NCBI GenBank assembly: GCA_046052705.1
Contig: JBJOLU010000013.1
Coordinates: 1-38,026 of the forward strand
Reading direction: 5' to 3'
Origin: Bacteroidota bacterium
GTDB taxonomy: Bacteria > Bacteroidota > Ignavibacteria > Kapaibacteriales > NICIL-2
Length of the DNA stretch: 38,026 nt
The translations under genes were made by a program, and so were the position numbers. Positions 5,573 to 20,781 of this stretch are shown here, one piece after another; position 1 is the first letter of the stretch, and the number at the start of each line of letters is the position of its first letter. The notes under the pieces were generated by a model. The model saw nothing but the letters and a program-made list of their open reading frames with translations, had not been told where the DNA came from and made no database searches.

Positions 5573-7378
5573 ATGGACAGACAATCAATCATCGGTTTCG
5601 TTCTCATCGCCATCATCATCACTGTATGGATGGTATATAATTCATCGCACACAGTGCCCGTGCCGCCTGCTCCGGCAGCCGCCCGGCAAACAGCTCCGGA
5701 TGCAGCTACAGCTCCGCCAAGCACTGCATCGTTGCAGAGTAGCGCGCCCGCTGTGGCGTCAGCGCCCGAGAAGCTGGTAAAAGTGGAAACGGATAAGTAC
5801 ACCGCATGGATAAGCTCTAAAGGCATGACCATCGCCCGCTTCGAGCTCAAGGGTTTTCAGTCTCACAGCAACACTCCCGTTCAATTGATCAAGCAGGGAG
5901 AGCATGCATTGGGCCTCACCTTTACCGGAAACCAAGGCAAGCCGGTGGACACTCGTAAACTGGACGCTACATTTATCGATCTTCCCTATGAACCGATTGT
6001 GCTTACGGGCACTGCCGCCAAAACTTTGCGAAGCCGCATGGACATTGGCAATGGCGCCTCTATTGAGCGCACACTCACCTTTACCGGCAATGTGTATCAT
6101 ATCGACGCAGGCTTTACCCTGACGAACATGGATAATGCTATGCCGTCCACGCAGCGCTGGTTCGATATATCGTGGGAGCGGGGATTGCAGTATCAGGAAG
6201 GAAACAGTGTAGAGGAATCCAACGGAGCCATTGCCTATGCATCCATGAATGGATCGCTGGAGGAACTTGATGCGCCCAAATACAACGAGCCGGTGTCGTC
6301 ACACCAGTCCGGAAAAGTTGATTTCATCGGAACCAAGACCAAGTACTTTTCCGCCGCCTTGCTGAATCCTAACTCGAACGGTGAAGACACCTACTATCTG
6401 GACGGTGTGCGCTATGGCGCGCCGGACAATGGCGTTGTGGAAGAGTATTCCTTCTCCTTGCGTGTCCCCTACCGTGGCGGCGTGCAAAGCTCGCAATACA
6501 GGTTGTACCTTGGTCCGCTGGACTACGACATTGTAAAAGAGTATGGCATGGCTTCTACCGTGAACTTCGGCTGGAAGTGGTTAGTGCGCCCCATCGGCGA
6601 GTTTTTCATGCTTCCGGTATTCACAACCATCTACAAGTTTTTGCCAAACTTCGGCGTGGCCATCATTGTGTTCTCGCTGTTGATGAAGCTGCTGTTGTAT
6701 CCGTTGTCGATGGGACAAATTCAGTCGGCGCAAAAGATGAAAGTACTGCAGCCGGAAGTAGAAAAGTTGCGCAAGAAATTCGCGGACGATCCCACCGGTA
6801 TGCAGCAAGCGCAAATGAAACTCTTTGGCGAGTACGGCATCAATCCAATGGGCGGATGCTTGCCGCTGCTACTGCAGATGCCTATTCTCTATGCCTTGTA
6901 TTCAGTGCTTACATCGAACATTCATATGCGGCATGCAATGTTTGTTCAAGGATGGATTCCCGATCTTTCGGTGCCCGATCACATTCTTACGCTGCCGTTC
7001 TCGGTGCTTGGTGTGCATGCACTATCCGGCATGGCACTTATTATGGGTATTACCATGTTTATTCAGCAACGAATGACGGTAACCGATCCCAGCCAACAAG
7101 CCATGGTGTACATGATGCCGGTGATGATGACCATGATGTTCTCGAATCTGCCTTCGGGATTAAATCTTTATTATCTCACCTTCAACTTCCTAGGCATTGC
7201 CCAGCAAGTGTACATGACCAAATTCTCGAAGAGTAAGATTACCCTGGAGGATTTGAAACGTATGCCAAAAAAGGAGTCGTGGCTACAGAAACGGCTGCAG
7301 ATGGCGCAAGAGATGGCCGAGGCCCAAGGCCGGATGCCGCAGCAGCAAAAACGTGCACCGAAGCGCTCCAAGAAATAA
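5573..7378 (+). CDS. yidC: Membrane protein insertase YidC
   Basis: 601 aa with an N-terminal TM anchor, a large periplasmic domain and the C-terminal 60-kDa-IMP core (LLMKLLLYPLSMGQIQSAQKMKVLQPEVEKLRKKF...GINPMGGCLPLLLQMPILYALY). Synteny with rpmH-rnpA-yidD supports the call. Confidence 0.95.
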   Translation: MDRQSIIGFVLIAIIITVWMVYNSSHTVPVPPAPAAARQTAPDAATAPPSTASLQSSAPAVASAPEKLVKVETDKYTAWISSKGMTIARFELKGFQSHSNTPVQLIKQGEHALGLTFTGNQGKPVDTRKLDATFIDLPYEPIVLTGTAAKTLRSRMDIGNGASIERTLTFTGNVYHIDAGFTLTNMDNAMPSTQRWFDISWERGLQYQEGNSVEESNGAIAYASMNGSLEELDAPKYNEPVSSHQSGKVDFIGTKTKYFSAALLNPNSNGEDTYYLDGVRYGAPDNGVVEEYSFSLRVPYRGGVQSSQYRLYLGPLDYDIVKEYGMASTVNFGWKWLVRPIGEFFMLPVFTTIYKFLPNFGVAIIVFSLLMKLLLYPLSMGQIQSAQKMKVLQPEVEKLRKKFADDPTGMQQAQMKLFGEYGINPMGGCLPLLLQMPILYALYSVLTSNIHMRHAMFVQGWIPDLSVPDHILTLPFSVLGVHALSGMALIMGITMFIQQRMTVTDPSQQAMVYMMPVMMTMMFSNLPSGLNLYYLTFNFLGIAQQVYMTKFSKSKITLEDLKRMPKKESWLQKRLQMAQEMAEAQGRMPQQQKRAPKRSKK

Positions 7379-7450
7379 TACGGCATACAGCATGCGTTAG
7401 AGTTGGCCTCCTGGTGGCTTTATCGTATCCGCTTCTTTAGACCTTGCGCA

Positions 7451-7487
7451 AAGGCCTCCTGCATCTGGGAGGCCTTTGTTGTATATT
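7451..7487 (+). terminator. Rho-independent terminator after yidC
   Basis: AAGGCCTCC (7451-7459) pairs perfectly with GGAGGCCTT (7468-7476) around an 8-nt loop, followed by TGTTGTATATT. It lies inside the 5' part of ORF 7444-8478, which argues for a later start for that gene. Confidence 0.7.
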
Positions 7488-7500
7488 GCCGCGTACCACG

Positions 7501-8478
7501 ATGCTTTATCCTGCCATGGCTTCTTCGCGATTTCGGAATATCGAACTGCGCAAAAGCACTGCTTCTCAACTGGTGCTTTTCTTTGCCATTCTGGTAGCAG
7601 CTTCATTCCTGTTTCTTAAAGGTGCGGTGATGCCGCTTGCGGATTCTGTGTTCCGCAATTCCTTCAAAGCCGAACTATTCACCAGCGGCGAGAACCTGAA
7701 TGAGTGGACCAATTGGAAGGTAGTTGTAGAGCCGGGCAAATCCTCTCGCGCCAACACCTATGGCGAAGAGAACGAAACCAAGGTGTATTACTTCGATCCT
7801 GTGCTTGCTACGTTGCCGTTGGTATTCGGTGCGGGTGCATTCATTGCCGTGATTGCCTGCGCTATAGTGGCACCGGGATTAGGACTCATTCGCCAAAAAA
7901 TTGAGCGAGAGATTATTAATGCACTTCATCACTATGCGCGCATCGAGTATGCGGAGCATACCGACGAAGATCTACTGGAACTTTCGGAGACCATTGCCAA
8001 AGCCGACGTTCATCGCCTTCATGAACTTGAAGATCATTGGCACACCTCGGTAGCAGACCTGGAAACATTGCAGCGTGCCGTGCTGTGGCGCCGACGCTCG
8101 CTGTTCGGACGCCTTGTGCATCTTCCGGATGCGTTGTCGTTATATATGCAGCAACACTTCACCATTCGGTACGAAAATTCCATGATGGGATTGATCTACA
8201 TTGGTGCCGCTGTGTTGATTATTATCATCGGTTTGCGAGGCTTACAGTTTATACCCAAAGACTCTCCCTCGCTGGTGCTCTTTGCCATTAGTCTGGAGTT
8301 TATTCTGCTTATCGTGTATGCCTTCACGCTGATGTACACCAAAGCAGAAGACAAGACCGAATCGGCAGACATGGGTATGTCTGATATGCAAACCATGTTT
8401 GGCGCAACATCTTCGGGATCGTCCAGCCGTCAGGCAGAAAAACTGTTGCGCATGTTTGTGTCCGGTCCGCATTCGTAG
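7501..8478 (+). CDS. Hypothetical integral membrane protein (about 4 TM) with a roughly 100-aa helical cytoplasmic loop
   Basis: ORF 7444-8478, with the start moved past the yidC terminator to ATG 7501 (ATG 7516 is an alternative). Hydrophobic spans are QLVLFFAILVAASFLFL, LPLVFGAGAFIAVIACAIVAPGLGLI, GLIYIGAAVLIIIIGL and LVLFAISLEFILLIVYAFTLMY. The loop between TM2 and TM3 is charged and helical (EREIINALHHYARIEYAEHTDEDLLELSE...). I recognise no family. Confidence 0.6.
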   Translation: MLYPAMASSRFRNIELRKSTASQLVLFFAILVAASFLFLKGAVMPLADSVFRNSFKAELFTSGENLNEWTNWKVVVEPGKSSRANTYGEENETKVYYFDPVLATLPLVFGAGAFIAVIACAIVAPGLGLIRQKIEREIINALHHYARIEYAEHTDEDLLELSETIAKADVHRLHELEDHWHTSVADLETLQRAVLWRRRSLFGRLVHLPDALSLYMQQHFTIRYENSMMGLIYIGAAVLIIIIGLRGLQFIPKDSPSLVLFAISLEFILLIVYAFTLMYTKAEDKTESADMGMSDMQTMFGATSSGSSSRQAEKLLRMFVSGPHS

Positions 8479-8528
8479 GTAATGACGAGAAATCGCCGTC
8501 GTTCATTCTCACAATGGTATAGGCCAGT

Positions 8529-10577
8529 ATGCCACATCAATCACACACACTTATAGCTCGTACAGCCGAAGCGGATTTTCTTCGATCGGCAAAAGAGAGT
8601 GCGCGCGCCGCACGCGGCCGTGTACTGGTGGTGAAGGGAGAGAGCGGATTCGGAAAATCCCTTCTTATGCAAACAGTTTGCGATGAGCTCGTAGCAGAGA
8701 TGCAGGTACATGCAGTTCTTCTGGAATGCGAAGCTCCCATCGGCAAGCTTAGTGTGTCGTCTCTGCAAACCATGCAGCCCTTTGTGCGTGCGCTTGAAGC
8801 ACTTGTGCGCCTGAACAGCAGTGCAGCCAAGAAGAGACTGGCAATGAACATCGGTCTTTCGGTGTTGGGCTTGATACCCTTTGCCGGCGCCATCTTCGAC
8901 ATGACCAAAGAAGTTATGCGAGACCTTCGGGAGTATCGCAAGGAGCAGGAGAAATCCGGTGCGAAGAGCGCGATAGACACCGTGATGAACGAACTCCTGC
9001 AATCGTTTGTAGCCATTGCCGCCGAGAAGCCTTTTGTGTTGTTCTTGGACGAAGCGCATCGCATGGATGCTGAGTCGTTCCGCTTTTTGTCGTTCTTGCA
9101 AAGCTCGCCTACGCCATTGCCCTTTAGTGTGGTGGTAGCTATTCAACAAGCCGAAGCCGAGAAAAACAACCCGGCATGTATGGCATGGCTGAACGGCATG
9201 AGCGCAGAGCAATGCATCACCCTTGGCGCTTTTGATGCCGATGCAGTGCGCGCGTGCGTGCGCTCGTACTTTCCGGGCAAGACATCACTTGCCGGTTTGG
9301 ATGATTGGCTTCTGCGCCGCACAGCGGGCGTGCCCATAGCCGTATGCGAGTACCTGGAGTATTTCACGTTGCACTCTCCGTACAGAGACGACGGCAGCTT
9401 AGATACAGAGGTGCTGGCTTCGCAGGCAATTCCCGTATCGCTGCAAGCGTTGCTCTCGAGAAACATAGAAGGCCTTTCGGAGCAAGACGCAAATCTTCTG
9501 GCTATGTGCAGTGCGGAGGGTCGAGAGTTCAGTGTGTATGTGCTTGCACGACTGATGAACACCGATGTATTAAGCGCGCTTCGCGAGTTGAAGTCGTTGC
9601 AGTTTCGCACCGGTTTGATACGCAGCACGGGGCCACAGCCCCGGTACGGCATGAAGACTACCGTGTATGAGTTTTCGCAAGCGGTGCACCACACCTTGTT
9701 CTATGCCAAGCTAGAGCACGAGGAGCGTATAGAGCTACACGATCGCATCGCGCATATTCTGCGCGAGTGCTTTGATGCCGCCACAGACGAATTGCTACAA
9801 CAACAATTAGCGCCCTACATTGCAGCGCACGCTCTAGAGGCAGGCGATGAAGACACTGCACGCGCAATGCTCATGGTTACCGCACAAGGCGCAGCAGATC
9901 TGGGCTACACGGGAGTGATCGACGAAGTAACTTCCGTGATTCGTGATTTCCGCGAAGCGCAAAGTGAGCAGGTGCTTCAGGAGCTGTCTACTCTTCGTGT
10001 GGACGCTGATGCAAGCGACAGCGACAATACAACTACGTTGCCCGGCAGCGGCACACGCGAGCTCGACGCCGCGTGCTACGCGGTGCGAGACAAAGCTCTG
10101 GATCTATTCCTTGGCGGTGATGCAGGCGGAGCAGCAGAGCTGTTGCAGAAATTCTGTGAGCAATGGGAAGGTTTACTTAGTGTTCGAGACTTCGTGCTCT
10201 TGTATGCAATGCGAGCGCGGTGCGAATCGGTAGCAGGCAGGCACGAGCTTGCTGCAGACCTGGTAAAGACAGCCCAAGAGATGGTACTCCGCGCGCCGAA
10301 TGCGGATTCGCAGTGCATACTGGATAATGTGGCCGGGACTGTGGCCTATAGCCGGGGTAAATCTGCCGAGGGCATGTATCATTTGCAGCAAGCGGCTCGT
10401 GCTGCTGCATCCGCCGGCGACGATTGCCGGCTCCTTACGGTGACGAACATTGCGTTTGCGGTTCAATCCACAAATCAACGGCAGTACCGCATCTTCCATC
10501 GCATGGCGCATCAGTTGTGCAGTGCCTTGCACTATCATGAATTTCGCGCAGCTATACTGGAACATAGCGCGCGTTGA
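8529..10577 (+). CDS. P-loop STAND / AAA_16-type ATPase with winged-helix and helical-repeat (TPR-like) C-terminal region
   Basis: 682 aa. Walker A is VVKGESGFGKSLL (aa 34-46) and Walker B is FVLFLDEAHRMD (aa 169-180). A winged-helix-like segment typical of MalT/AAA_16 STAND proteins follows (LSEQDANLLAMCSAEGREFSVYVLARLMN...YEFSQAVHHTLFYAKLEHEERIELHDRIAHIL). The last ~250 aa are Ala/Leu-rich helical repeats. There is no N-terminal effector domain. Confidence 0.7.
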   Translation: MPHQSHTLIARTAEADFLRSAKESARAARGRVLVVKGESGFGKSLLMQTVCDELVAEMQVHAVLLECEAPIGKLSVSSLQTMQPFVRALEALVRLNSSAAKKRLAMNIGLSVLGLIPFAGAIFDMTKEVMRDLREYRKEQEKSGAKSAIDTVMNELLQSFVAIAAEKPFVLFLDEAHRMDAESFRFLSFLQSSPTPLPFSVVVAIQQAEAEKNNPACMAWLNGMSAEQCITLGAFDADAVRACVRSYFPGKTSLAGLDDWLLRRTAGVPIAVCEYLEYFTLHSPYRDDGSLDTEVLASQAIPVSLQALLSRNIEGLSEQDANLLAMCSAEGREFSVYVLARLMNTDVLSALRELKSLQFRTGLIRSTGPQPRYGMKTTVYEFSQAVHHTLFYAKLEHEERIELHDRIAHILRECFDAATDELLQQQLAPYIAAHALEAGDEDTARAMLMVTAQGAADLGYTGVIDEVTSVIRDFREAQSEQVLQELSTLRVDADASDSDNTTTLPGSGTRELDAACYAVRDKALDLFLGGDAGGAAELLQKFCEQWEGLLSVRDFVLLYAMRARCESVAGRHELAADLVKTAQEMVLRAPNADSQCILDNVAGTVAYSRGKSAEGMYHLQQAARAAASAGDDCRLLTVTNIAFAVQSTNQRQYRIFHRMAHQLCSALHYHEFRAAILEHSAR

Positions 10578-10652: not shown

Positions 10653-11348
10653 TTAGTACGGGATATGAATCTCTGCCCCGCCCACGGCGAATCGACCGCG
10701 GCCGCTACCGCCCTGCCTGTACACCTGAGTAATACACTGCATATCCAGCATCAGCACAATCTCCCGACGATTCGTTGCTTTCCATGCCATGACACGTGCG
10801 AACGACTCTACCGGTGATGAAGGAGGCTTTGCAGACACTATAGGAATGCGGGTGTATTTGTACGTAGGCTTCTCGGAAGTAAGTACGGTAAAAGCAACTT
10901 CTCCGTTGTACAACCACTGCCAACTTTGGCCATAAATAGGAAGTGAGTCTATACGTACCTGTATACTGCGCACATTCACTTCTCGGGCGTCGAACGGATC
11001 TTTCACCAACGGCGAAAGGGACATGTTCATGCTAAGCATTGGCACTGCACCGGTAGTATCCACAACAAACGAGGAGCTATCGGTGATTCCCAAGTACGGC
11101 GCGCGATTGCTGAACACCATGGGCACATATGCCGAGCCCACATCATCAAGCAAGAGCACCGATGTGTTTACCGAATCCTGAGTGACAATAGCCGGCTTGG
11201 GATGTACGGGCTTGCCATCAATAGGCCCGGTGATAGGATCTTTGAAGCACCCTATCATCACCAGAGCCGGTAATAGTACTGCTGCCCACAGCACTCGAAT
11301 ACTCTTGAGTGTTGTAGCAGATGTTGTATTCATTTTCAACTTCATCAT
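10653..11348 (-). CDS. Hypothetical lipoprotein
   Basis: 231 aa. Signal peptide with a lipobox-like LVMIGC (MMKLKMNTTSATTLKSIRVLWAAVLLPALVMIGCFKD). It is the last gene of the ECF sigma / anti-sigma unit on the minus strand. Confidence 0.6.
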   Translation of the reverse strand: MMKLKMNTTSATTLKSIRVLWAAVLLPALVMIGCFKDPITGPIDGKPVHPKPAIVTQDSVNTSVLLLDDVGSAYVPMVFSNRAPYLGITDSSSFVVDTTGAVPMLSMNMSLSPLVKDPFDAREVNVRSIQVRIDSLPIYGQSWQWLYNGEVAFTVLTSEKPTYKYTRIPIVSAKPPSSPVESFARVMAWKATNRREIVLMLDMQCITQVYRQGGSGRGRFAVGGAEIHIPY

Positions 11349-13411: not shown

Positions 13412-13801
13412 TTCGAAGCAAACTACAGGATTGTGGCTAATAATGGCCGACCCGCTGCGAACCCGGTCCGTATACGGTCCCCACTGCGGTTAATACAACG
13501 GTCCGTACCATCTAGGCTACATCAATAACCCCCAAAGCTCGAATAGGTAACATTGCATCGGAAAAGACACCAAAACACTCTATTCCGTGTTGTGTACTTA
13601 CATCGTTGTTAAACTTCTTCACACCCTGCATCGTCTACGCTATATTGTACAGCTACATTGTGATTGTCATTTCATTGTGCATTCACCATTCAGGTATTGT
13701 GTGATTCATGCAATGGTTTGAGTTTGCGCAGACTTCGTGGCTTCTCTTCTCCGGAAAAAACAGAAACAACAATAGTATAGTTTCATTATTTGTTCTCTCT
13801 C

Positions 13802-16708
13802 ATGAACTCTTTTCGTCTCCTTTTTGTCACCTGTTGTGTGACGCTTGCGTTGGCGTGCTCCCTGGCCGTTACCGCTCAATCACAGATCGACATGCCGGAT
13901 GGTGAAGCCGTGCTTGCGGTCAATGTTATTACCGAAGCAACGCCGGCGCAGTATGTGCGTCTTGCGGCTACTCGTGGCCGTGTGTACGCGTCACGGTGGA
14001 GCTCCGGTATTTGGACGAAGAACGCAATGATCTTCGAAGTTCCCTATAGCCGTCGCATCGTTGATGCTGCGTTGAAAACCGGTGAGACCGGATCAATGCG
14101 CAGTTACGCTGTGTTGCTTGACAATGGCGATGTCAGTGTCCTACGTTTTGATGTCAACACGCTGCTTCCCGATAAGACTATTCAGAATATCGCTTCGCCC
14201 TTTGTTCCTCAGGGTGGCGGCTTTAATCAACAGACATACAAGAAAATCCTTTTCGCAGGCGGACTCAAGCTCCACTTCGGAAATGTTGTCTATGCTAATC
14301 CTCTTGATGGTTCGCCCTACACGCTGGACTCCGCCGGTCAGGGTCGCACCAATATCCAGGACATTGCTGTTGACATGCAAGGCAATCTGTTTGCCGCATC
14401 AACGCGCGGCATTGTGACATGGAACAACTCCGCATCAAAGTGGCAACGCGTTAGCGGATTTGACTCAACACTTAGTCCTACTGCACTCTTTATTGCCCGT
14501 GACGGCCGCATGTTTGCCTCCGTTGCCAACAAGGGTGTGTATTCTTCCATAAACAACGGCTCCTCCTGGGCATTGGACACCGCGGGCTCCGGCAACATTG
14601 CCTTCGCTCGTTATGGCGATGATGCTTCGAACAATATGTATGCAGTAGTCAATACCACGAACACCACCTCTGCGTTGTATCGCAAGATGGGTGCAGGTAT
14701 GGGATGGTCGCGCATTGATTCAAGCTTGACCTTGACTGTTGGCGGCATTGTACGCATTAATGATCTTGCAGGAGATGCATCTCTGGAGCTGGGAACAACG
14801 GTTGGTGTTATGTCGTCCACAAAGAATGGCGACGACTGGTCGAACAATACCTTTGGTATTGCTGCAGAGGATATATACGGTTTGCAATTTTTCCCGGGCA
14901 ACGTTACTGTAGTAAGTACGTCGCTAGGAATGTTCAAGAAAACGGCTACGTGGTCTCGTACCTTTCCCTCTACAGGTTTTAACGGCACGCGTCCTTTGCA
15001 ACGCAGCGCCAACACGCTGTCGTTCCAACTTGCAGGCACCGGCCAAGGTACTACCGCTCAACAAGGTCTTATCTACACCAGTACGGACCAGGGTTCCACG
15101 TGGACTCTCGATACTACCGGACTCTCCGCAGTTCCCGGCAGCACAAGCAATCAGATCCCCTCGGTTTTTGGCGTTGATATGTCGGGCAAGAAATTCATCG
15201 CAACAGGCTCGCCTATTTCTGTATACTCCACACCGTGGGCTCTAGACACCGCAGGCTTTTATCAACCCACCGGTACAAGCGCTGCATCACTCATTTATTC
15301 CGATCCTTTGAGCACCGTGTATGTATGCGGAGCGATATATGGCGGAGGAGGTGGTGGTGGCTTTCAAGTGCGCGATATCGTGCTAAATCGTCGCACGGCA
15401 AACGGAACTTCATGGACTGTTGATACTACCGGTCTCAACAAACGCCCTGTGTATTCACTGGCATCCGGTATGGATCTTACCTATGCCGGCACCGGCTTGG
15501 TTAATGGCGTCTCGTATCTCTACAAACGCGGAGCTAATGGATGGGAAAATATTCCTGCGCCGGCCACTGCAGTATCGGATGCCCGTGCAGTGGTCATCGA
15601 CTCATCAAAGTCATTGTTCGTTGCTTACTCCGGTGTACTCAGCGCCAACTCACCGAACCGTGGTGTGTATGCTACCAGCGATGATGGTAAGAACTGGGAT
15701 TATGCCGGACTCGACTCCTTGCTTGTGCGTGGACTGTGTGCAACCGGATCGGGTGTATATGCGTTCACGAACCGCGGTAGTTATCTGCTTTCGCGTCGTC
15801 CCTTGCGCACCGCTACCATTCAATTCAGTAAGAACATTATCGACTTCGGTTTGGTGGACGTAGGTGCTACAAAAGACACCGTAATCACCGTGAAAAACAG
15901 TGGCGATGATACCTTGCGTGTAAGTAATCTGCGCACCAATTCGGCAAACTTCACAGCGAATCCGGCGCAGTTTTCCGTTGCGCCAGGCGACTCCAAGAAC
16001 ATCACCATCAGCTTCCGTCCTACCACCGGAGGTCAGGCAGCAACTACCATGCGAAGTGTGGCCAACACTACACCCGACACAGTGTACCTTGTAGGTCAAG
16101 GCAAAGCAGCTAATGTTAAGATCATTCTGGAGAGCCGAAGCATTGATCTTGGTATTGTGAACGTTGGCGACACACGCGATTCCGTTGTATCAATAGCAAA
16201 CGGTGGCACCGACACACTTATCGTTAATGGCGTGAATGCAAGTGTACAGGCCTTGTCTATCGTTCCTTCATCGTTCAAACTTGCGGGCGGCGACAGCACA
16301 ATGATTACCATTCGCTATGCGCCCACAGCAGCCGGTAGTGTGATTGGTTACTTGCGATTCAATTACAACGGGCCGTCGGATTCCATACGCATTCTGGCAC
16401 GCGCAGACATCGCCTCTGTGGACGATCCTACGCTTGTGAACACCTTTGCCTTGTCGTTGCAACCGCACCCTGTTACCGCTGCGAATGCGATGCTGAAGTT
16501 CCGCATGCCTAGCGACGAGTTGATGCGACTTGTACTCGTGAATTCTCTTGGCGAAGAGATGGGAGAAATCTCGTCGGGCATGGTAAGCCAAGGCGAGCAC
16601 GTTATCGATCTGAGTTCGCATGTTCAGAACTTATCTGCCGGAACCTACTTCCTGCGCATGACCACTGCGCACGGTACATCGGCGATGAAGTTTATGCTTG
16701 TCAGATAA
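13802..16708 (+). CDS. Secreted BNR/sortilin-type repeat protein with two Ig-like domains and a T9SS C-terminal sorting domain
   Basis: ORF 13790-16708 starts at TTG, so ATG 13802 is preferred (MNSFRLLFVTCCVTLALACSLAVTAQ signal peptide). It has repeated S-x-D/N-x-G-x-x-W motifs (SSINNGSSWALDTAG, STKNGDDWSNN, STDQGSTWTLDTTG, TANGTSWTVDTTG, TSDDGKNWDYAG). Two duplicated Ig-like modules are present (IDFGLVDVGATKDTVITVKNSGDDTLRVS and IDLGIVNVGDTRDSVVSIANGGTDTLIVN). The tail is T9SS-like (...LVLVNSLGEEMGEI...LSAGTYFLRMTTAHGTSAMKFMLVR). Confidence 0.8.
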   Translation: MNSFRLLFVTCCVTLALACSLAVTAQSQIDMPDGEAVLAVNVITEATPAQYVRLAATRGRVYASRWSSGIWTKNAMIFEVPYSRRIVDAALKTGETGSMRSYAVLLDNGDVSVLRFDVNTLLPDKTIQNIASPFVPQGGGFNQQTYKKILFAGGLKLHFGNVVYANPLDGSPYTLDSAGQGRTNIQDIAVDMQGNLFAASTRGIVTWNNSASKWQRVSGFDSTLSPTALFIARDGRMFASVANKGVYSSINNGSSWALDTAGSGNIAFARYGDDASNNMYAVVNTTNTTSALYRKMGAGMGWSRIDSSLTLTVGGIVRINDLAGDASLELGTTVGVMSSTKNGDDWSNNTFGIAAEDIYGLQFFPGNVTVVSTSLGMFKKTATWSRTFPSTGFNGTRPLQRSANTLSFQLAGTGQGTTAQQGLIYTSTDQGSTWTLDTTGLSAVPGSTSNQIPSVFGVDMSGKKFIATGSPISVYSTPWALDTAGFYQPTGTSAASLIYSDPLSTVYVCGAIYGGGGGGGFQVRDIVLNRRTANGTSWTVDTTGLNKRPVYSLASGMDLTYAGTGLVNGVSYLYKRGANGWENIPAPATAVSDARAVVIDSSKSLFVAYSGVLSANSPNRGVYATSDDGKNWDYAGLDSLLVRGLCATGSGVYAFTNRGSYLLSRRPLRTATIQFSKNIIDFGLVDVGATKDTVITVKNSGDDTLRVSNLRTNSANFTANPAQFSVAPGDSKNITISFRPTTGGQAATTMRSVANTTPDTVYLVGQGKAANVKIILESRSIDLGIVNVGDTRDSVVSIANGGTDTLIVNGVNASVQALSIVPSSFKLAGGDSTMITIRYAPTAAGSVIGYLRFNYNGPSDSIRILARADIASVDDPTLVNTFALSLQPHPVTAANAMLKFRMPSDELMRLVLVNSLGEEMGEISSGMVSQGEHVIDLSSHVQNLSAGTYFLRMTTAHGTSAMKFMLVR

Positions 16709-18158: not shown

Positions 18159-20303
18159 TTAGTGCGCAACGATGAACGTAGAGAAGAAGATTTTTTCCCC
18201 AACGCGAAGTCGTGCCGTGTACACGCCCGATGCCATGGCTTGAACCGATAGCGGCATGGTATACGTTCCGGCATCGGTAGTGCCCTGTACCGGCGCACTT
18301 ACACATCTGCCCTGCTCATCCCAAATGTCCACGGCAACACGCGCGCTTTGGTCTACCGTATAGCGCACACTCAGGGTTTCGCTTCCCGTGGCCGGCTGCG
18401 GAAACACCGATATAGCGGGCGCATCGCTTGGGCCTGCAGAGCTATTGTTGTCCTGCACCGAAACGATAACGCTCCCTTGCGGCTTCATGCACAACAAGGT
18501 TTGATCTTCATCAATAATCATAGTGTCGGGAAGAAACGGCACGCGCACGGTAACCGTTTGCTCCAACGAATCATTGAGCAAAAGATAGTCGAAGGTATCG
18601 CTTGAGTATCGCGCGTGGAATCGAAGCGGCACCGGCATCACAAACAAAGGCGGAGCCGCACTTGTGGGACCGGATTTCTGATTGAAACGCAGCACCACAT
18701 CTGCTTCATCTCCAACACGTGTTACCGACTGCACGGTGGCGGTGTAATAGGGATGGCCCGCGCTGTAAATCCATTGATCAAAAAACTGACGGAACGATAC
18801 TTTGGGGTTGGGCACGAGTTCCTCCCACAGCGCCAAAAAGTCTTCTGTTTCTACCGATTGATAGGCGAAGCGCCGCATGTATTCTCTCATCACAGAGAAA
18901 TACGTGCTGTCTCCCACCAGCGATCTCAACATGGAATACACCCATCCGCCTTTTACATAGGTGGTGCCGTAGTTAAAAAGATTATTGAATGGCACGTAGT
19001 AGATGGCCGGCTGTGCTGCGGCTTCATCACTGCCGAAGTACGATCTGTCTCGGCGCTGGGCAAAGTCGGCGCGCGCCGCTTTGATGCCCTGCTGCTTCTC
19101 GATCCACAAAAATTCTCCGTAGGTAGCGCCGCCCTCGTTCAGCCAAATATCGCTCCACGTGGCGCATGTAACCTTGTCTCCCGTCCACTGGTGCATGAGC
19201 TCGTGTGCTATCACGCCTTCCCATCTATCCGTAAGTGCGCGGCGATTGTGCGTTGTATTCGTTTGATGCTCCATCGCTCCGCTGAAGTAGGGAAACAGTA
19301 ATGTTTGAGCGTAGCTTTCGAATGGATACTCACCATAGCAGGCAGAGAACCTCTCCATCATGCGCACGGTACTTTCCTGCATCCACAGCAGATTGTCCGC
19401 AAAGCGCGCGGCATCGGCTAGCCATAGGTACACCGGTGCCGGCACCACTTGCGTGCTGTCGGTAATGCGGCGATAGGGAGTGCCATCGTATCGCGCCCAC
19501 TTAGACGCGCACACCACCATGAGGTAGGTTGGTATCGGAGACTTTCCGGACCATGCATACAATTCACCGTCGCTTGTCTTATCATATTTGACCAGAAGGC
19601 CGTTCGAGCTGACGTTATATCCGGTGGGAACAAGTACTGTGATAGACGCAAACGCTTTATCGTATGAGCGATCGTTGCATGGCATCCATGCGCGAGCGCC
19701 GTTGGGCTGGCTCATGGTGTACGCGATATTGGCATACACGGTATCGGATGCTGTTTTGTTTCCCAGCACACCGGCGGGAGTAGCCACAAAACCGTTATAG
19801 TCGCCGGGGTTCGACAAACTCACGTTGGTGTAGTGAACAACCAGTGTGAGCGTATCGCCCGCTCCCCGCGGACCAACGGCAATATCTACCGAGCCTTTTG
19901 TTTGCTTGTAATCCTTACCGGCAAGCGTGCCATTTACAAAAGCCGAGTCGATGCGCAGATCGCTAACATCCAGCGATATCGTGCTTGTATTTGCGGAATC
20001 TATGCGAACGCGAATGGTGTTCCTGCCCGTGTACTCACGAGAGCCCACACCGGTCTGTGTAAGTGGCTTGCGCCAATCCATAAACAGATTGTACGAGAGA
20101 ACATCGTACGGCCGGCGCACAATGGCCGATGGTCGGCGCGATTGTATCATGGGCCACGTTGCAGTGCCGCGCACGTGCTCGTGCATTGCATGTTCGCTCG
20201 ACGGCGTGAGTTTTCCTTCGCCCTGCAAAAGGACATCGGGAATGGTTTGCGCGCCGGCATGTACAGCGCTAAGGAACAATACAGTCAGAAGAACAGCTTT
20301 CAT
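18159..20303 (-). CDS. M1 family zinc aminopeptidase with T9SS C-terminal sorting domain
   Basis: It has the exopeptidase motif SGAMEHQ, the zinc motif HELMHQWTGD and the downstream WLNEGGATY. The start is set at ATG 20303, giving the signal peptide MKAVLLTVLFLSAVHAGAQ. The tail is T9SS-like (...SVFPQPATGSETLSVRY...GVYTARLRVGEKIFFSTFIVAH). Confidence 0.88.
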   Translation of the reverse strand: MKAVLLTVLFLSAVHAGAQTIPDVLLQGEGKLTPSSEHAMHEHVRGTATWPMIQSRRPSAIVRRPYDVLSYNLFMDWRKPLTQTGVGSREYTGRNTIRVRIDSANTSTISLDVSDLRIDSAFVNGTLAGKDYKQTKGSVDIAVGPRGAGDTLTLVVHYTNVSLSNPGDYNGFVATPAGVLGNKTASDTVYANIAYTMSQPNGARAWMPCNDRSYDKAFASITVLVPTGYNVSSNGLLVKYDKTSDGELYAWSGKSPIPTYLMVVCASKWARYDGTPYRRITDSTQVVPAPVYLWLADAARFADNLLWMQESTVRMMERFSACYGEYPFESYAQTLLFPYFSGAMEHQTNTTHNRRALTDRWEGVIAHELMHQWTGDKVTCATWSDIWLNEGGATYGEFLWIEKQQGIKAARADFAQRRDRSYFGSDEAAAQPAIYYVPFNNLFNYGTTYVKGGWVYSMLRSLVGDSTYFSVMREYMRRFAYQSVETEDFLALWEELVPNPKVSFRQFFDQWIYSAGHPYYTATVQSVTRVGDEADVVLRFNQKSGPTSAAPPLFVMPVPLRFHARYSSDTFDYLLLNDSLEQTVTVRVPFLPDTMIIDEDQTLLCMKPQGSVIVSVQDNNSSAGPSDAPAISVFPQPATGSETLSVRYTVDQSARVAVDIWDEQGRCVSAPVQGTTDAGTYTMPLSVQAMASGVYTARLRVGEKIFFSTFIVAH

Positions 20304-20373
20304 GATCAATCGCGTCTCTTTAGGTATCACAAATTGTTTCGTAGATCTCGGTGCCGTATACACCGCGTGGATG

Positions 20374-20781
20374 CTATTCGGCAGCCGATGATCTCTTGTA
20401 AAATACAGCGCCTCGGACGGCAAAGATCAACGCCAGCACACCGGTTTCTGTTTGCAGTAAATCTTCCAGAGATGGCCTCATGCCTTGAGCGTACACCTGT
20501 ATGGAGTTAATCGTTGCAGGCACTTCAATGAGTACAACAAGCGTAGTAATGGCAAGAGCAACTTGAAGAGCTTGGTGCTTTCGTTTGTCTGAAACACTCA
20601 ACACGGCAAACGCAAAGAGCACCAGCCCGCATACCAGTGGATGAACAAACACCCAGCTATGCACTGTTGGCGCAATTTTCTCCATCAACGGTAGGTTCAG
20701 CGAAGCAACCTTTGTGGAAGAGAATCCGTAACCGCCCAGGGTAAGGAACACAAAGCTGAGAATCATGGAGAATGCTGTCAT
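20374..20781 (-). CDS. Hypothetical small membrane protein (about 4 TM)
   Basis: 135 aa, made up mostly of hydrophobic helices (ILSFVFLTLGGYGF, WVFVHPLVCGLVLFAFAVL, ALAITTLVVLIEV, GVLALIFAVRGAVF). I recognise no family. Confidence 0.5.
   Translation of the reverse strand: MTAFSMILSFVFLTLGGYGFSSTKVASLNLPLMEKIAPTVHSWVFVHPLVCGLVLFAFAVLSVSDKRKHQALQVALAITTLVVLIEVPATINSIQVYAQGMRPSLEDLLQTETGVLALIFAVRGAVFYKRSSAAE

What the first reader, a model, noticed from the sequence alone, without database searches (positions are those of the whole stretch)
7501..10577. Two-gene unit: a 4-TM membrane protein followed by an effector-less STAND/AAA_16 ATPase with a helical-repeat C-terminus
**Seen in the sequence**
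- A clean terminator (7451-7487) separates yidC from this pair.
- The two genes are co-oriented with a 50-nt gap, and the unit ends against a convergent gene.
- Gene 1 has four hydrophobic helices and a ~100-aa charged helical cytoplasmic loop.
- Gene 2 starts almost directly with its P-loop (Walker A at aa 37-44). It then has a winged-helix-like segment and ~250 aa of Ala/Leu-rich helical repeats.
- Gene 2 has no recognisable enzymatic or effector domain.

**Established knowledge**
STAND NTPases with repeat sensors (Avs/NLR-like, MalT-like) normally carry an N-terminal effector or DNA-binding output.

**Inference**
The membrane protein could be the output of the ATPase, acting as a membrane-disrupting or signalling partner. 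That architecture resembles sensor-plus-membrane-effector defence modules, but I cannot place either protein in a named family. The composition looks native (about 52% GC in a sampled line), so it may equally be a conserved lineage-specific regulatory pair.
Basis: partly seen in the sequence, partly recalled or inferred. Interest (0 to 1): 0.65.

Follow-up and report, generated by a model that had tools for sequence, protein, structure and literature searches.

The report
Stator-like membrane protein paired with STAND ATPase
These two genes are a conserved, vertically inherited partnership found only in Kapabacteria and their relatives, between a membrane protein carrying a proton-motor-type helix pair and a switch-type ATPase with no output domain; this looks like a new way of wiring such parts together, not a phage-defence cassette.

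Summary
A terminator follows yidC. Gene 1 is a 4-TM protein (7516/7501-8478). A 50-nt gap follows, then gene 2, a 682-aa AAA_16 ATPase (8529-10577) with no effector domain.

- **Gene 2.** It is a STAND NTPase (NBD-HD-WHD plus a TPR-like solenoid; the top fold match is the STAND-TPR structure 6MFV). Its best-conserved stretch is a hydrophobic hairpin (aa 100-137) between Walker A and Walker B. AlphaFold cannot place this hairpin.
- **Gene 1.** It has MotA-like topology. Its TM3-TM4 hairpin carries an invariant Glu266. The hairpin is clearly homologous to two paralogues in the same genome. One of these, next to a GldM-like gene, aligns with canonical GldL (hhalign E 3e-6; decoys about 2e-3).
- **Linkage.** Among 41 genomes of the order, 33 have both genes, 6 have neither and 2 have only the ATPase. 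The genes are adjacent in 20 of the 33, and in 10 of 10 distant same-class genomes where the ATPases share only 25-29% identity.
- **Selection and mobility.** Both genes are under purifying selection. There are no PADLOC, phage or plasmid matches.

I read this as a lineage-specific housekeeping module in which a STAND switch is coupled to a GldL-like proton-conducting unit. The mechanism is inferred. The scan reached the same reading on another genome (e1-5220244).

The parts
7448..7479 (+). Intrinsic-terminator-like hairpin (14 pairs, 7 of them G-C) after yidC. It sets the pair apart as its own transcription unit.
   Evidence: sequence
7501..8478 (+). Gene 1 (G1): a 4-TM inner-membrane protein, 325 aa from 7501. 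The likely true start is the ATG at 7516, giving 320 aa. Residue numbers in this report count from 7501.
   Evidence: (P0003, 320 aa)
7561..7866 (+). TM1 (aa 21-54, invariant Q23), a small beta-rich periplasmic loop (aa 57-98; W72, Y96 and P100 invariant) and TM2 (aa 100-122).
   Evidence: AF2 model; invariant columns
7885..8169 (+). Cytoplasmic helical domain between TM2 and TM3 (aa 129-223). It begins with the conserved RQKIEREI motif (R136 and E137 invariant).
8173..8337 (+). TM3-TM4 hairpin (aa 225-279), reading YIGAAVLIIIIGLRGLQFIPKDSPSLVLFAISLEFILLIVYAF. It resembles GldL and is the region shared with the two paralogues in this genome.
8296..8298 (+). Codon of the invariant membrane-embedded Glu266 in TM4. 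It aligns with the invariant Glu49 of canonical GldL.
8419..8463 (+). Conserved C-terminal amphipathic helix (aa 307-321; AEKLLRMF, with L316 and F319 invariant), tethered by a low-confidence linker (aa 287-305). It is a candidate docking motif for the TPR arm of gene 2; this is inference.
8529..10577 (+). Gene 2 (G2): a 682-aa STAND-type AAA_16 NTPase with no terminal effector domain.
8637..8660 (+). Walker A motif GESGFGKS (aa 37-44; G40, G42 and K43 invariant).
8826..8939 (+). Conserved hydrophobic hairpin inserted between strand 2 and Walker B, in the ISM (initiator-specific motif) region of the NBD. It covers aa 100-137, AKKRLAMNIGLSVLGLIPFAGAIFDMTKEVMRDLREYR. This is the best-conserved stretch of the protein, yet AF2 leaves aa 97-126 at pLDDT below 50.
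   Evidence: ISM position from PMC6468293
9033..9053 (+). Walker B motif FVLFLDE (aa 169-175; D174 invariant).
9567..9710 (+). Winged-helix domain of the NOD (aa 347-394; wing hairpin at 364-382).
9717..10562 (+). Arm plus TPR-like alpha-solenoid sensor (aa 397-678; about 14 helices, with a disordered linker at 493-510).
   Evidence: TPR Pfam hits in homologue P0130

Best explanation
The pair is a vertically inherited, two-gene inner-membrane module restricted to the class that holds Kapabacteria and Ignavibacteria.

**Gene 1.** It is a 4-TM protein with MotA-like topology: TM1, a periplasmic loop, TM2, a cytoplasmic domain of about 100 aa, TM3-TM4 and a cytoplasmic tail. Its TM3-TM4 hairpin is a paralogue of the lineage's own divergent GldL-like stator protein. 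It keeps the membrane-embedded glutamate that carries the proton in GldL/PorL. I infer that gene 1 oligomerises into a proton-conducting, stator-like unit.

**Gene 2.** It is a STAND ATPase (NBD-HD-WHD, arm, TPR sensor) with no terminal effector. Its output element is inferred to be the conserved hydrophobic hairpin grafted into the ISM region of its nucleotide-binding domain.

**Proposed mechanism.**
- In the resting ADP state the hairpin would be masked, as the ISM tip is capped by the TPR sensor in PH0952.
- On activation the hairpin would dip into the membrane or into gene 1.
- The TPR arm may hold the tethered C-terminal helix of gene 1.
- In this way a cytoplasmic signal and ATP-dependent oligomerisation would be coupled to the gating or assembly of the proton-conducting unit, or the reverse, with proton flux reporting to the STAND switch.

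**Shown:** the gene structures, the STAND fold, the conservation of the hairpins, the paralogy, and the genomic and phyletic linkage.

**Inferred:** physical interaction, proton conduction, the direction of signalling and the cellular process served.
For: **Linkage**
- In the order sample, 33 genomes have both genes, 6 have neither and 2 have the ATPase alone. The genes are adjacent in 20 of the 33, always with G1 upstream on the same strand.
- The genes are also adjacent in 10 of 10 genomes of three other families of the class, where the G2 proteins are only 25-29% identical to this one.
- In the family tree the G2-linked proteins form two clades, both separate from the never-linked 448-aa paralogue clade.

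**Selection**
- dN/dS is 0.155 for G1 and 0.072 for G2 against the closest relative.

**G1**
- Glu266 is invariant and the hairpin is highly conserved.
- The AF2 model has pLDDT 78 and shows four TM helices plus a cytoplasmic helical domain.
- hhalign gives G1 versus the short paralogue family E 2.3e-12 (reversed decoys about 0.1).
- It gives the short paralogue versus canonical GldL E 3.4e-6 over 154 columns (decoys about 2e-3).
- It gives the pooled hairpin profile versus the GldL N-terminus E 2.6e-4 over 73 columns with the Glu aligned (decoys 0.5-0.7).
- The genome holds exactly three hairpin proteins, one GldM-like candidate and one G2.

**G2**
- AAA_16 scores 61 bits against a cut-off of 32.6.
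- Foldseek matches are 6MFV STAND-TPR at 2.6e-11, then CED-4, Apaf-1 and MalT.
- The hydrophobic insert is the best-conserved stretch and is kept in distant homologues.
- Its Kyte-Doolittle value is 1.89, and AF2 leaves it unplaced at pLDDT below 50.
- In PH0952 the ISM tip is capped by the TPR sensor (PMC6468293).
Against: - No experiment and no complex prediction supports a physical G1-G2 contact.
- Direct comparison of G1 with GldL is weak (hhalign E 0.037, probability 1.4%).
- The GldL HMMs (TIGR03513, PF22827) match nothing in this genome.
- The G1 profile finds nothing in five genomes that carry canonical gldL.
- Foldseek of the G1 model finds no stator.
- The decoy scores for the comparison of the short paralogue with GldL are not negligible.
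- The genes are unlinked in 13 of the 33 genomes that have both, and two genomes keep G2 without G1. G2 can therefore act, at least partly, without an adjacent or present G1.
- No axle-type partner (the MotB, ExbD or GldM role) is encoded at the locus.
- The hydrophobic insert is too short for a membrane-spanning hairpin and could instead be a protein-protein interface.
Confidence: 0.5

Rival explanations
1. The pair belongs to the type IX secretion or gliding apparatus of this lineage. Gene 1 would be an extra or alternative stator subunit that uses the genome's single GldM-like protein as its axle. Gene 2 would be its assembly or regulatory ATPase.
For: - The genome encodes 63 T9SS C-terminal sorting domains but no canonical GldL or GldM.
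- There are three GldL-like hairpin proteins and only one GldM-like candidate.
- In one family (G017, G036, G027) G1-G2 is chained to an Asp-box propeller that carries a T9SS sorting domain. In G027 the ATPase and the propeller are one 1603-aa ORF.
- In one genome the 437-aa paralogue lies next to the GldL-like/GldM-like pair.
Against: - G1-G2 is never adjacent to the GldL-like/GldM-like pair in the loci read.
- Family f5 (3 genomes) keeps the propeller but lacks G1-G2.
- The periplasmic loop of G1 is about 40 aa, too short to transmit force outward.
- The comparison of the GldM-like protein with GldM is not significant (E 0.013; decoys 0.06-0.12).
Confidence: 0.2
2. Gene 1 is only a membrane anchor or receptor for the STAND protein. 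The Glu-bearing hairpin would be structural and conduct no ions. The module would be a conventional ligand-sensing STAND hub whose targets are other, unlinked proteins.
For: - G2 persists without G1 in two genomes and is unlinked in 13.
- There is no axle partner at the locus.
- Foldseek finds no stator-like fold for the G1 monomer.
Against: - A buried, invariant Glu in a TM helix, and a hairpin conserved in three paralogue families across a whole class, argue for a functional role in the membrane.
- G1 never occurs without G2 in the order sample.
Confidence: 0.15
3. The pair is an anti-phage abortive-infection module. The STAND protein would sense a phage product through its TPR arm and trigger the membrane protein to dissipate the membrane potential.
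For: - STAND NTPases with repeat sensors are common in defence (Avs), and membrane effectors are known.
- Membrane-anchored P-loop NTPases such as PifA and Tmn defend against phages (PMC13001434).
- G2 has no other output.
Against: - PADLOC gave only a 0.015 match to an unrelated model.
- G1 has no match in 50,697 phage records or 72,556 plasmid records.
- The gene is single-copy, present in 35 of 41 genomes of the order, and its divergence follows taxonomy.
- It sits in a housekeeping context beside yidC, with native GC.
- Purifying selection is strong.
Confidence: 0.07
4. The two genes are neighbours by descent only and have no functional relation.
For: They are unlinked in 13 genomes. The yidC-G1-G2 synteny is limited to one genus.
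Against: - The same order and strand are kept at 25-29% identity across families.
- They are lost together in 6 genomes.
- G1 never occurs alone.
Confidence: 0.03

Closest known systems
GldL / PorL (TIGR03513; Pfam GldL_N PF22827), the five-copy subunit of the GldLM/PorLM proton-driven motor of type IX secretion and gliding
   Same: - It has a two-helix TM hairpin with a G-A-A-V-x-I-I-x-G first helix, a basic residue near the periplasmic end, and a single conserved Glu in the second helix.
- The two proteins align in register.
- G1 reaches GldL transitively, through the genome's own short GldL-like paralogue.
   Different: - The curated HMMs do not match.
- In G1 the hairpin is TM3-TM4 of a 4-TM protein, not the N-terminus.
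- The cytoplasmic tail is 46 aa, not a long helical domain.
- The neighbouring gene is a STAND ATPase, not gldM.
- G1 has no long periplasmic partner.
MotA (flagellar stator) and the other 5:2 motors (ExbB/TolQ, ZorA of Zorya)
   Same: - G1 has the same membrane topology as MotA: four TM helices, a large cytoplasmic domain between TM2 and TM3, and the ion-path hairpin as the last two helices.
- Its output would be on the cytoplasmic side, as when MotA acts on FliG.
- Zorya shows that such units can be wired to non-motility partners.
   Different: - The MotA_ExbB profile (PF01618) does not match G1. The genome's one PF01618 gene is elsewhere.
- There is no MotB/ExbD/ZorB-type partner with a TM aspartate at the locus.
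- Oligomeric state is unknown.
TPR-sensor STAND ATPases: PH0952 (PDB 6MFV) and MalT (PDB 8BOB)
   Same: - G2 has the NBD-HD-WHD core, the arm and a TPR-like solenoid.
- 6MFV is the best fold match (2.6e-11), and MalT is at 2.4e-6.
- G2 matches the AAA_16 profile and has a GxP motif (AGVP, aa 266-269).
   Different: - PH0952 and MalT carry DNA-binding effector domains (PMC6468293). G2 has none.
- G2 has a conserved hydrophobic hairpin of about 40 aa in the ISM region, which those proteins lack.
KAP and YobI/Tmn families: P-loop NTPases with transmembrane helices inserted in or beside the NTPase domain
   Same: G2 is a P-loop NTPase with a hydrophobic segment between Walker A and Walker B and with repeat-containing arms. 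A role at the membrane is proposed for it, as for those families (PMC13001434).
   Different: - KAP_NTPase (PF07693) does not match G2 at E up to 1.
- G2 has one hydrophobic stretch of about 20 aa with a central Pro/Gly, not two to four full TM helices.
- G2 depends on a separate membrane protein.
- Its distribution is that of a core gene, not a mobile one.

Membership tests
GldL/PorL (TIGR03513, PF22827) | Match to the curated family profile above its cut-off | tested here: not met
   NCBIfam and Pfam scans of G1 gave no GldL hit at E up to 1. TIGR03513 and PF22827 found nothing in the whole genome at E up to 1 and up to 10 respectively.
GldL/PorL (TIGR03513, PF22827) | Two-helix TM hairpin with a conserved Glu in the second helix | tested here: met
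   Glu266 is invariant in 37 homologues. It aligns with the invariant Glu49 of 14 canonical GldL sequences. The pooled hairpin profile gives E 2.6e-4 against decoys of 0.5-0.7.
GldL/PorL (TIGR03513, PF22827) | Hairpin at the N-terminus, followed by a long cytoplasmic helical domain | tested here: not met
   In G1 the hairpin is TM3-TM4 (aa 225-279) and the tail is 46 aa. The genome's 267-aa paralogue on contig C191 fits this feature better.
GldL/PorL (TIGR03513, PF22827) | Encoded next to gldM/porM, with which it forms a 5:2 complex | tested here: not met
   The downstream gene is the STAND ATPase. The only GldM-like candidate is on contig C191. Stoichiometry cannot be tested with these tools.
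MotA/ExbB/TolQ (PF01618) | Match to the MotA_ExbB profile | tested here: not met
   The Pfam scan of G1 gave no PF01618 hit at E up to 1. The genome's single PF01618 match is on contig C49.
MotA/ExbB/TolQ (PF01618) | Adjacent single-TM partner with a conserved aspartate (MotB/ExbD/TolR) | tested here: not met
   No such ORF lies between the terminator at 7448-7479 and the convergent gene at 10653.
STAND NTPases (AAA_16-type NOD) | P-loop NBD with Walker A and B, matching a STAND/AAA_16 profile above its cut-off | tested here: met
   PF13191 scores 61.1 bits against a cut-off of 32.6. K43 and D174 are invariant.
STAND NTPases (AAA_16-type NOD) | NBD-HD-WHD core followed by an arm and a repeat sensor | tested here: met
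   The AF2 model (pLDDT 78.7) shows a WHD with a wing at 364-382 and a helical solenoid at 397-678. Foldseek top hits are 6MFV, CED-4, Apaf-1 and MalT.
STAND NTPases (AAA_16-type NOD) | At least one effector domain at a protein end | tested here: not met
   Nothing lies before the NBD (Walker A at aa 37) or after the solenoid, and there are no domain hits. The 13 aligned orthologues are 666-717 aa, and about 95 of the 104 representative clusters with E up to 1e-30 are 640-720 aa. PMC6468293 says such a domain is the general rule for STAND proteins.
Antiviral STAND systems (Avs-like) and other known defence systems | Match to defence-system models; patchy, island-borne or mobile distribution | tested here: not met
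   PADLOC gave no hit for G1 and only E 0.015 to an unrelated RecD model for G2. The gene is present in 35 of 41 genomes of the order. G1 has no phage or plasmid match.
KAP / YobI membrane P-loop NTPases | Family profile match and two to four TM helices associated with the NTPase domain | tested here: not met
   PF07693 is not among the hits at E up to 1. There is only one hydrophobic window (aa 104-122, Kyte-Doolittle 1.89).

The most novel reading that the evidence does not exclude
The module is a new class of signalling machine in which a 5:2-type, GldL-like proton-conducting ring is wired directly to a STAND ATPase. The conserved hydrophobic ISM hairpins of the STAND protein would plug into the ring from the cytoplasmic side, possibly taking the place of the missing axle subunit. 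Proton-motive force and nucleotide-driven oligomerisation would then be mechanically coupled. This would be the first stator unit whose partner is a STAND hub, and the first STAND protein whose effector is part of its own nucleotide-binding domain.
Probability: 0.15. Interest if true: 0.85.

Novelty: new variant of a known kind. Interest (0 to 1): 0.6.

Why it matters
Ion-driven stator units (MotAB, ExbBD, TolQR, GldLM, ZorAB) and STAND switches are both well studied. I found no described case in which the two are combined (literature searches).

If the pair works as proposed, it would matter in three ways:
- It would show how an effector-less STAND protein produces an output.
- It would add a new use of the GldL-type hairpin outside secretion and gliding.
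- It would give a handle on the cell-envelope biology of Kapabacteria and Ignavibacteria. In the genomes searched, these lineages have T9SS cargo signals but no recognisable GldL or GldM.

The result also warns annotators that STAND-plus-membrane-protein pairs are not automatically defence systems.

Tried and rejected
**Searches that found nothing**
- A profile of 37 G1 homologues against PDB sequences gave only coiled-coil noise.
- Foldseek of the G1 model against PDB gave nothing below E 1.6.
- The G1 profile against five genomes with canonical gldL gave no match at E up to 10.
- TIGR04189 (SprA) matched neither this genome nor the controls, so it is uninformative.
- A third homologue search with the G2 alignment added no new orthologues.
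- Literature searches for GldL plus Ignavibacteria, and for T9SS plus Kapabacteria, found nothing useful.

**Ideas tested and rejected**
- Is the 534-aa neighbour of the short paralogue a GldM? hhalign gave E 0.013 against decoys of 0.06-0.12, which is not significant. Pfam gave no hit.
- Is the pair linked to flagella? One relative has G2 convergent with fliG-fliF. This genome has no FliG, so I rejected the link.
- Does the Asp-box propeller that is chained to G2 in family f2 track the pair? It does not. It is present in 37 of 41 genomes, including the f5 family that lacks G1-G2, and it lies on another contig here.
- Is the window's own 972-aa T9SS cargo protein related to that propeller? It is not.
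- Is G2 a KAP-family member? I rejected this.

Full report
**What is there.** The window is contig C13 of a 2.15-Mb, 94%-complete genome. Close homologues are labelled Candidatus Kapaibacterium.
- After yidC (5573-7378) comes a 14-bp-stem terminator hairpin at 7448-7479.
- Gene 1 (G1) runs from 7501 to 8478. Homologues and the database call start at the ATG at 7516.
- After a 50-nt gap, with no terminator-like site on the + strand, comes gene 2 (G2), 8529-10577, 682 aa.
- A convergent lipoprotein gene at 10653-11348 closes the unit.
- GC is 0.50-0.55, like the rest of the window.

**Gene 2 is a STAND ATPase without an effector.**
- It matches AAA_16 at 61 bits against a cut-off of 32.6, and AAA_22. 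PADLOC gives nothing meaningful.
- An AF2 model built on 13 orthologues (pLDDT 78.7) shows an NBD, a helical domain with the GxP motif (AGVP, aa 266-269), a winged-helix domain with its wing at 364-382, and a solenoid of about 14 helices at 397-678.
- Foldseek puts the STAND-TPR protein PH0952 (6MFV) first at 2.6e-11. CED-4, Apaf-1, MalT and Cdc6/Orc1 follow.
- PH0952 and MalT carry DNA-binding effectors. STANDs generally have an effector at one end (PMC6468293). G2 has none: Walker A begins at residue 37 and the solenoid runs to the C-terminus.

**A conserved hydrophobic hairpin sits in the NBD of G2.**
- Residues 100-137 read AKKRLAMNIGLSVLGLIPFAGAIFDMTKEVMRDLREYR. They lie between strand 2 and Walker B and are the most conserved stretch of the protein. 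L104, N107, G109, L113, I116, P117, G120, K127, E128, R131, D132 and Y136 are invariant.
- The motif survives in same-class homologues at 25-29% identity.
- It is also present in about half of the roughly 95 representative clusters of 640-720 aa.
- The 19-residue hydropathy peak is 1.89.
- AF2 leaves aa 97-126 below pLDDT 50. High conservation with no placement in the monomer suggests a segment that needs a partner or a membrane.
- Its position corresponds to the ISM helices. In PH0952 these form the NBD tip that the TPR sensor caps in the resting state.
- With a central Pro/Gly and only about 20 apolar residues, it cannot cross the bilayer twice. A re-entrant wedge or a protein interface is more likely.

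**Gene 1 is a 4-TM protein with a GldL-type hairpin.**
- No Pfam, NCBIfam or PADLOC family matches.
- An alignment of 37 homologues shows that TM3-TM4 is almost invariant. It reads YIGAAVLIIIIGLRGLKFIP..PSLVLFALGLEF, with Glu266 invariant.
- AF2 (pLDDT 78) gives TM helices at 21-54, 100-122, 225-248 and 256-279. It also shows a small beta-rich periplasmic loop, a helical cytoplasmic domain at 129-223, and a tethered C-terminal helix at 307-321. This is MotA's topology.
- The genome holds exactly three proteins with this hairpin: G1, a 447-aa 4-TM paralogue (C136:737-2080) and a 267-aa protein (C191:5211-6014).
- The 267-aa protein is followed by a 534-aa protein whose N-terminal TM reads RSRFIDIYFVLYIAALVLV. 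That pair is conserved in 16 of 20 relatives read.
- Decoy-controlled hhalign results:

| Comparison | E-value | Reversed decoys |
|---|---|---|
| G1 family vs short paralogue family | 2.3e-12 | about 0.1 |
| Short family vs 14 canonical GldL sequences (154 columns) | 3.4e-6 | about 2e-3 |
| Pooled hairpin profile (68 sequences) vs GldL N-terminus (73 columns, Glu aligned) | 2.6e-4 | 0.5-0.7 |
| G1 vs GldL directly | 0.037 | about 0.55 |

- Canonical GldL and GldM profiles find nothing in this genome. The GldL profile (TIGR03513) also gave no match above its cut-off in 17 other genomes of the class; one (G069) had a weak sub-threshold match at E 2.4e-4. Yet this genome has 63 T9SS sorting domains.
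- My reading is that the short protein is the lineage's divergent GldL, and that G1 is a repurposed paralogue of its hairpin. This homology is supported but not proven.

**The two genes belong together.**
- In 41 genomes of the order, 33 have both genes, 6 have neither and 2 have G2 only. None has G1 only.
- The genes are adjacent, with G1 first on the same strand, in 20 of the 33. They are 1.4 Mb apart in one complete genome.
- Outside the order, in three other families of the class, a G1-type gene is directly followed by a G2-type gene in 10 of 10 genomes.
- In a maximum-likelihood tree the short family, the 448-aa family and two G2-linked clades are each strongly supported. None of the 19 members of the 448-aa clade has a G2 neighbour.
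- dN/dS against the nearest relative is 0.155 for G1 and 0.072 for G2.
- The G1 profile finds nothing in Bacteroidota outside this class. All 12 matching genomes among the 151 sampled belong to the class.
- G1 has no match in phage or plasmid collections.
- The yidC-G1-G2 synteny is limited to the genus.

**Interpretation.**
- The defence reading fails on distribution, context and model matches.
- The best-supported reading is a lineage-specific housekeeping module. In it a STAND switch is coupled to a GldL-like, Glu-dependent proton-conducting unit.
- The ISM hairpin of G2 and the tethered C-terminal helix of G1 are the likely contact elements. The contact, the ion conduction and the direction of signalling are all inferred.
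- A link to T9SS is the main rival. In family f2 the pair is chained to a T9SS-sorted Asp-box propeller, and in G027 the ATPase and the propeller are fused in one ORF. That propeller's distribution does not follow the pair.

**Relation to earlier notes of the scan.**
- A follow-up on another genome (e1-5220244) reached the same reading. My tests were made independently on this genome and agree with it.
- Sibling notes on this window had flagged the hairpin (e1-4395161) and the hydrophobic insert (e1-4395160). Both are confirmed here.

**Limits.**
- There is no complex prediction and no experimental data.
- The genome samples are related, so the counts are not independent events.

Noticed in passing
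own genome contig C191:5211-6014 and 6038-7642 (outside the window): This is a candidate divergent GldL/GldM pair. A 267-aa protein with a Glu-bearing TM hairpin is followed by a 534-aa protein with one N-terminal TM (RSRFIDIYFVLYIAALVLV). The pair sits directly after an lptF/lptG-type permease gene. The arrangement is conserved in 16 of 20 relatives read. The GldL link is moderately supported by hhalign. The GldM link is not significant.
   Followed up: partly
own genome contig C136:737-2080 (outside the window): A third hairpin paralogue of 447 aa. It has the same 4-TM plan and a K-V-E-R-E-I motif after TM2, plus a long coiled-coil tail. It is present in 41 of 41 genomes of the order and never lies next to a G2-type gene. 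In G022 it sits directly beside the GldL-like/GldM-like pair.
   Followed up: partly
whole genome G000 and same-class genomes: This genome has 63 T9SS C-terminal sorting domains (TIGR04183). However, TIGR03513 (GldL), TIGR03517 (GldM) and PF22827 match nothing in it. TIGR03513 also gave no match above its cut-off in 17 other genomes of the class; one (G069) had a weak sub-threshold match at E 2.4e-4. The T9SS motor of this class seems too divergent for the curated models.
   Followed up: partly
L108:948-6853 (G017), L109 (G036), L107:1171-6956 (G027): In family f2 the order is dnaK, G1, G2, then an Asp-box (BNR) propeller of 958-999 aa with a T9SS sorting domain. The ORFs abut or overlap. In the complete genome G027 the ATPase and the propeller form one 1603-aa ORF, joined through the propeller's signal-peptide-like hydrophobic segment. 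A representative protein of 1600 aa (P0215) has the same architecture.
   Followed up: partly
L090:4916-8094: In a related metagenome-assembled genome the G2-type gene directly follows the lptF/lptG-type permease gene. In most relatives the GldL-like/GldM-like pair holds that position.
   Followed up: no
L091:6001-11017: A G2-type gene lies convergent to a fliG-fliF-fliE-rod gene cluster in a related genome. The window's own genome has no FliG match. Some members of this group therefore appear to be flagellated.
   Followed up: partly
G003:C16:65649-67709, G018:C30:6075-8093, G037:C2:423307-424278: Single in-frame stop codons lie inside otherwise full-length matches: TAA in a G2 orthologue, TGA in another G2 orthologue, and TAA in a G1 orthologue. 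They could be sequencing errors or young pseudogenes.
   Followed up: no
window 13790-16708 (+) and 18159-20423 (-): Two T9SS cargo genes lie near the pair. One is a 972-aa protein with HYDIN/ASH-type Ig-like domains and a weak sorting-domain match. The other is an M1-family peptidase with a Por_Secre_tail domain. The 972-aa protein is not related to the propeller that is chained to G2 in family f2.
   Followed up: partly
Orthologues and the database gene call begin at MASSRF (ATG at 7516).
   Followed up: yes
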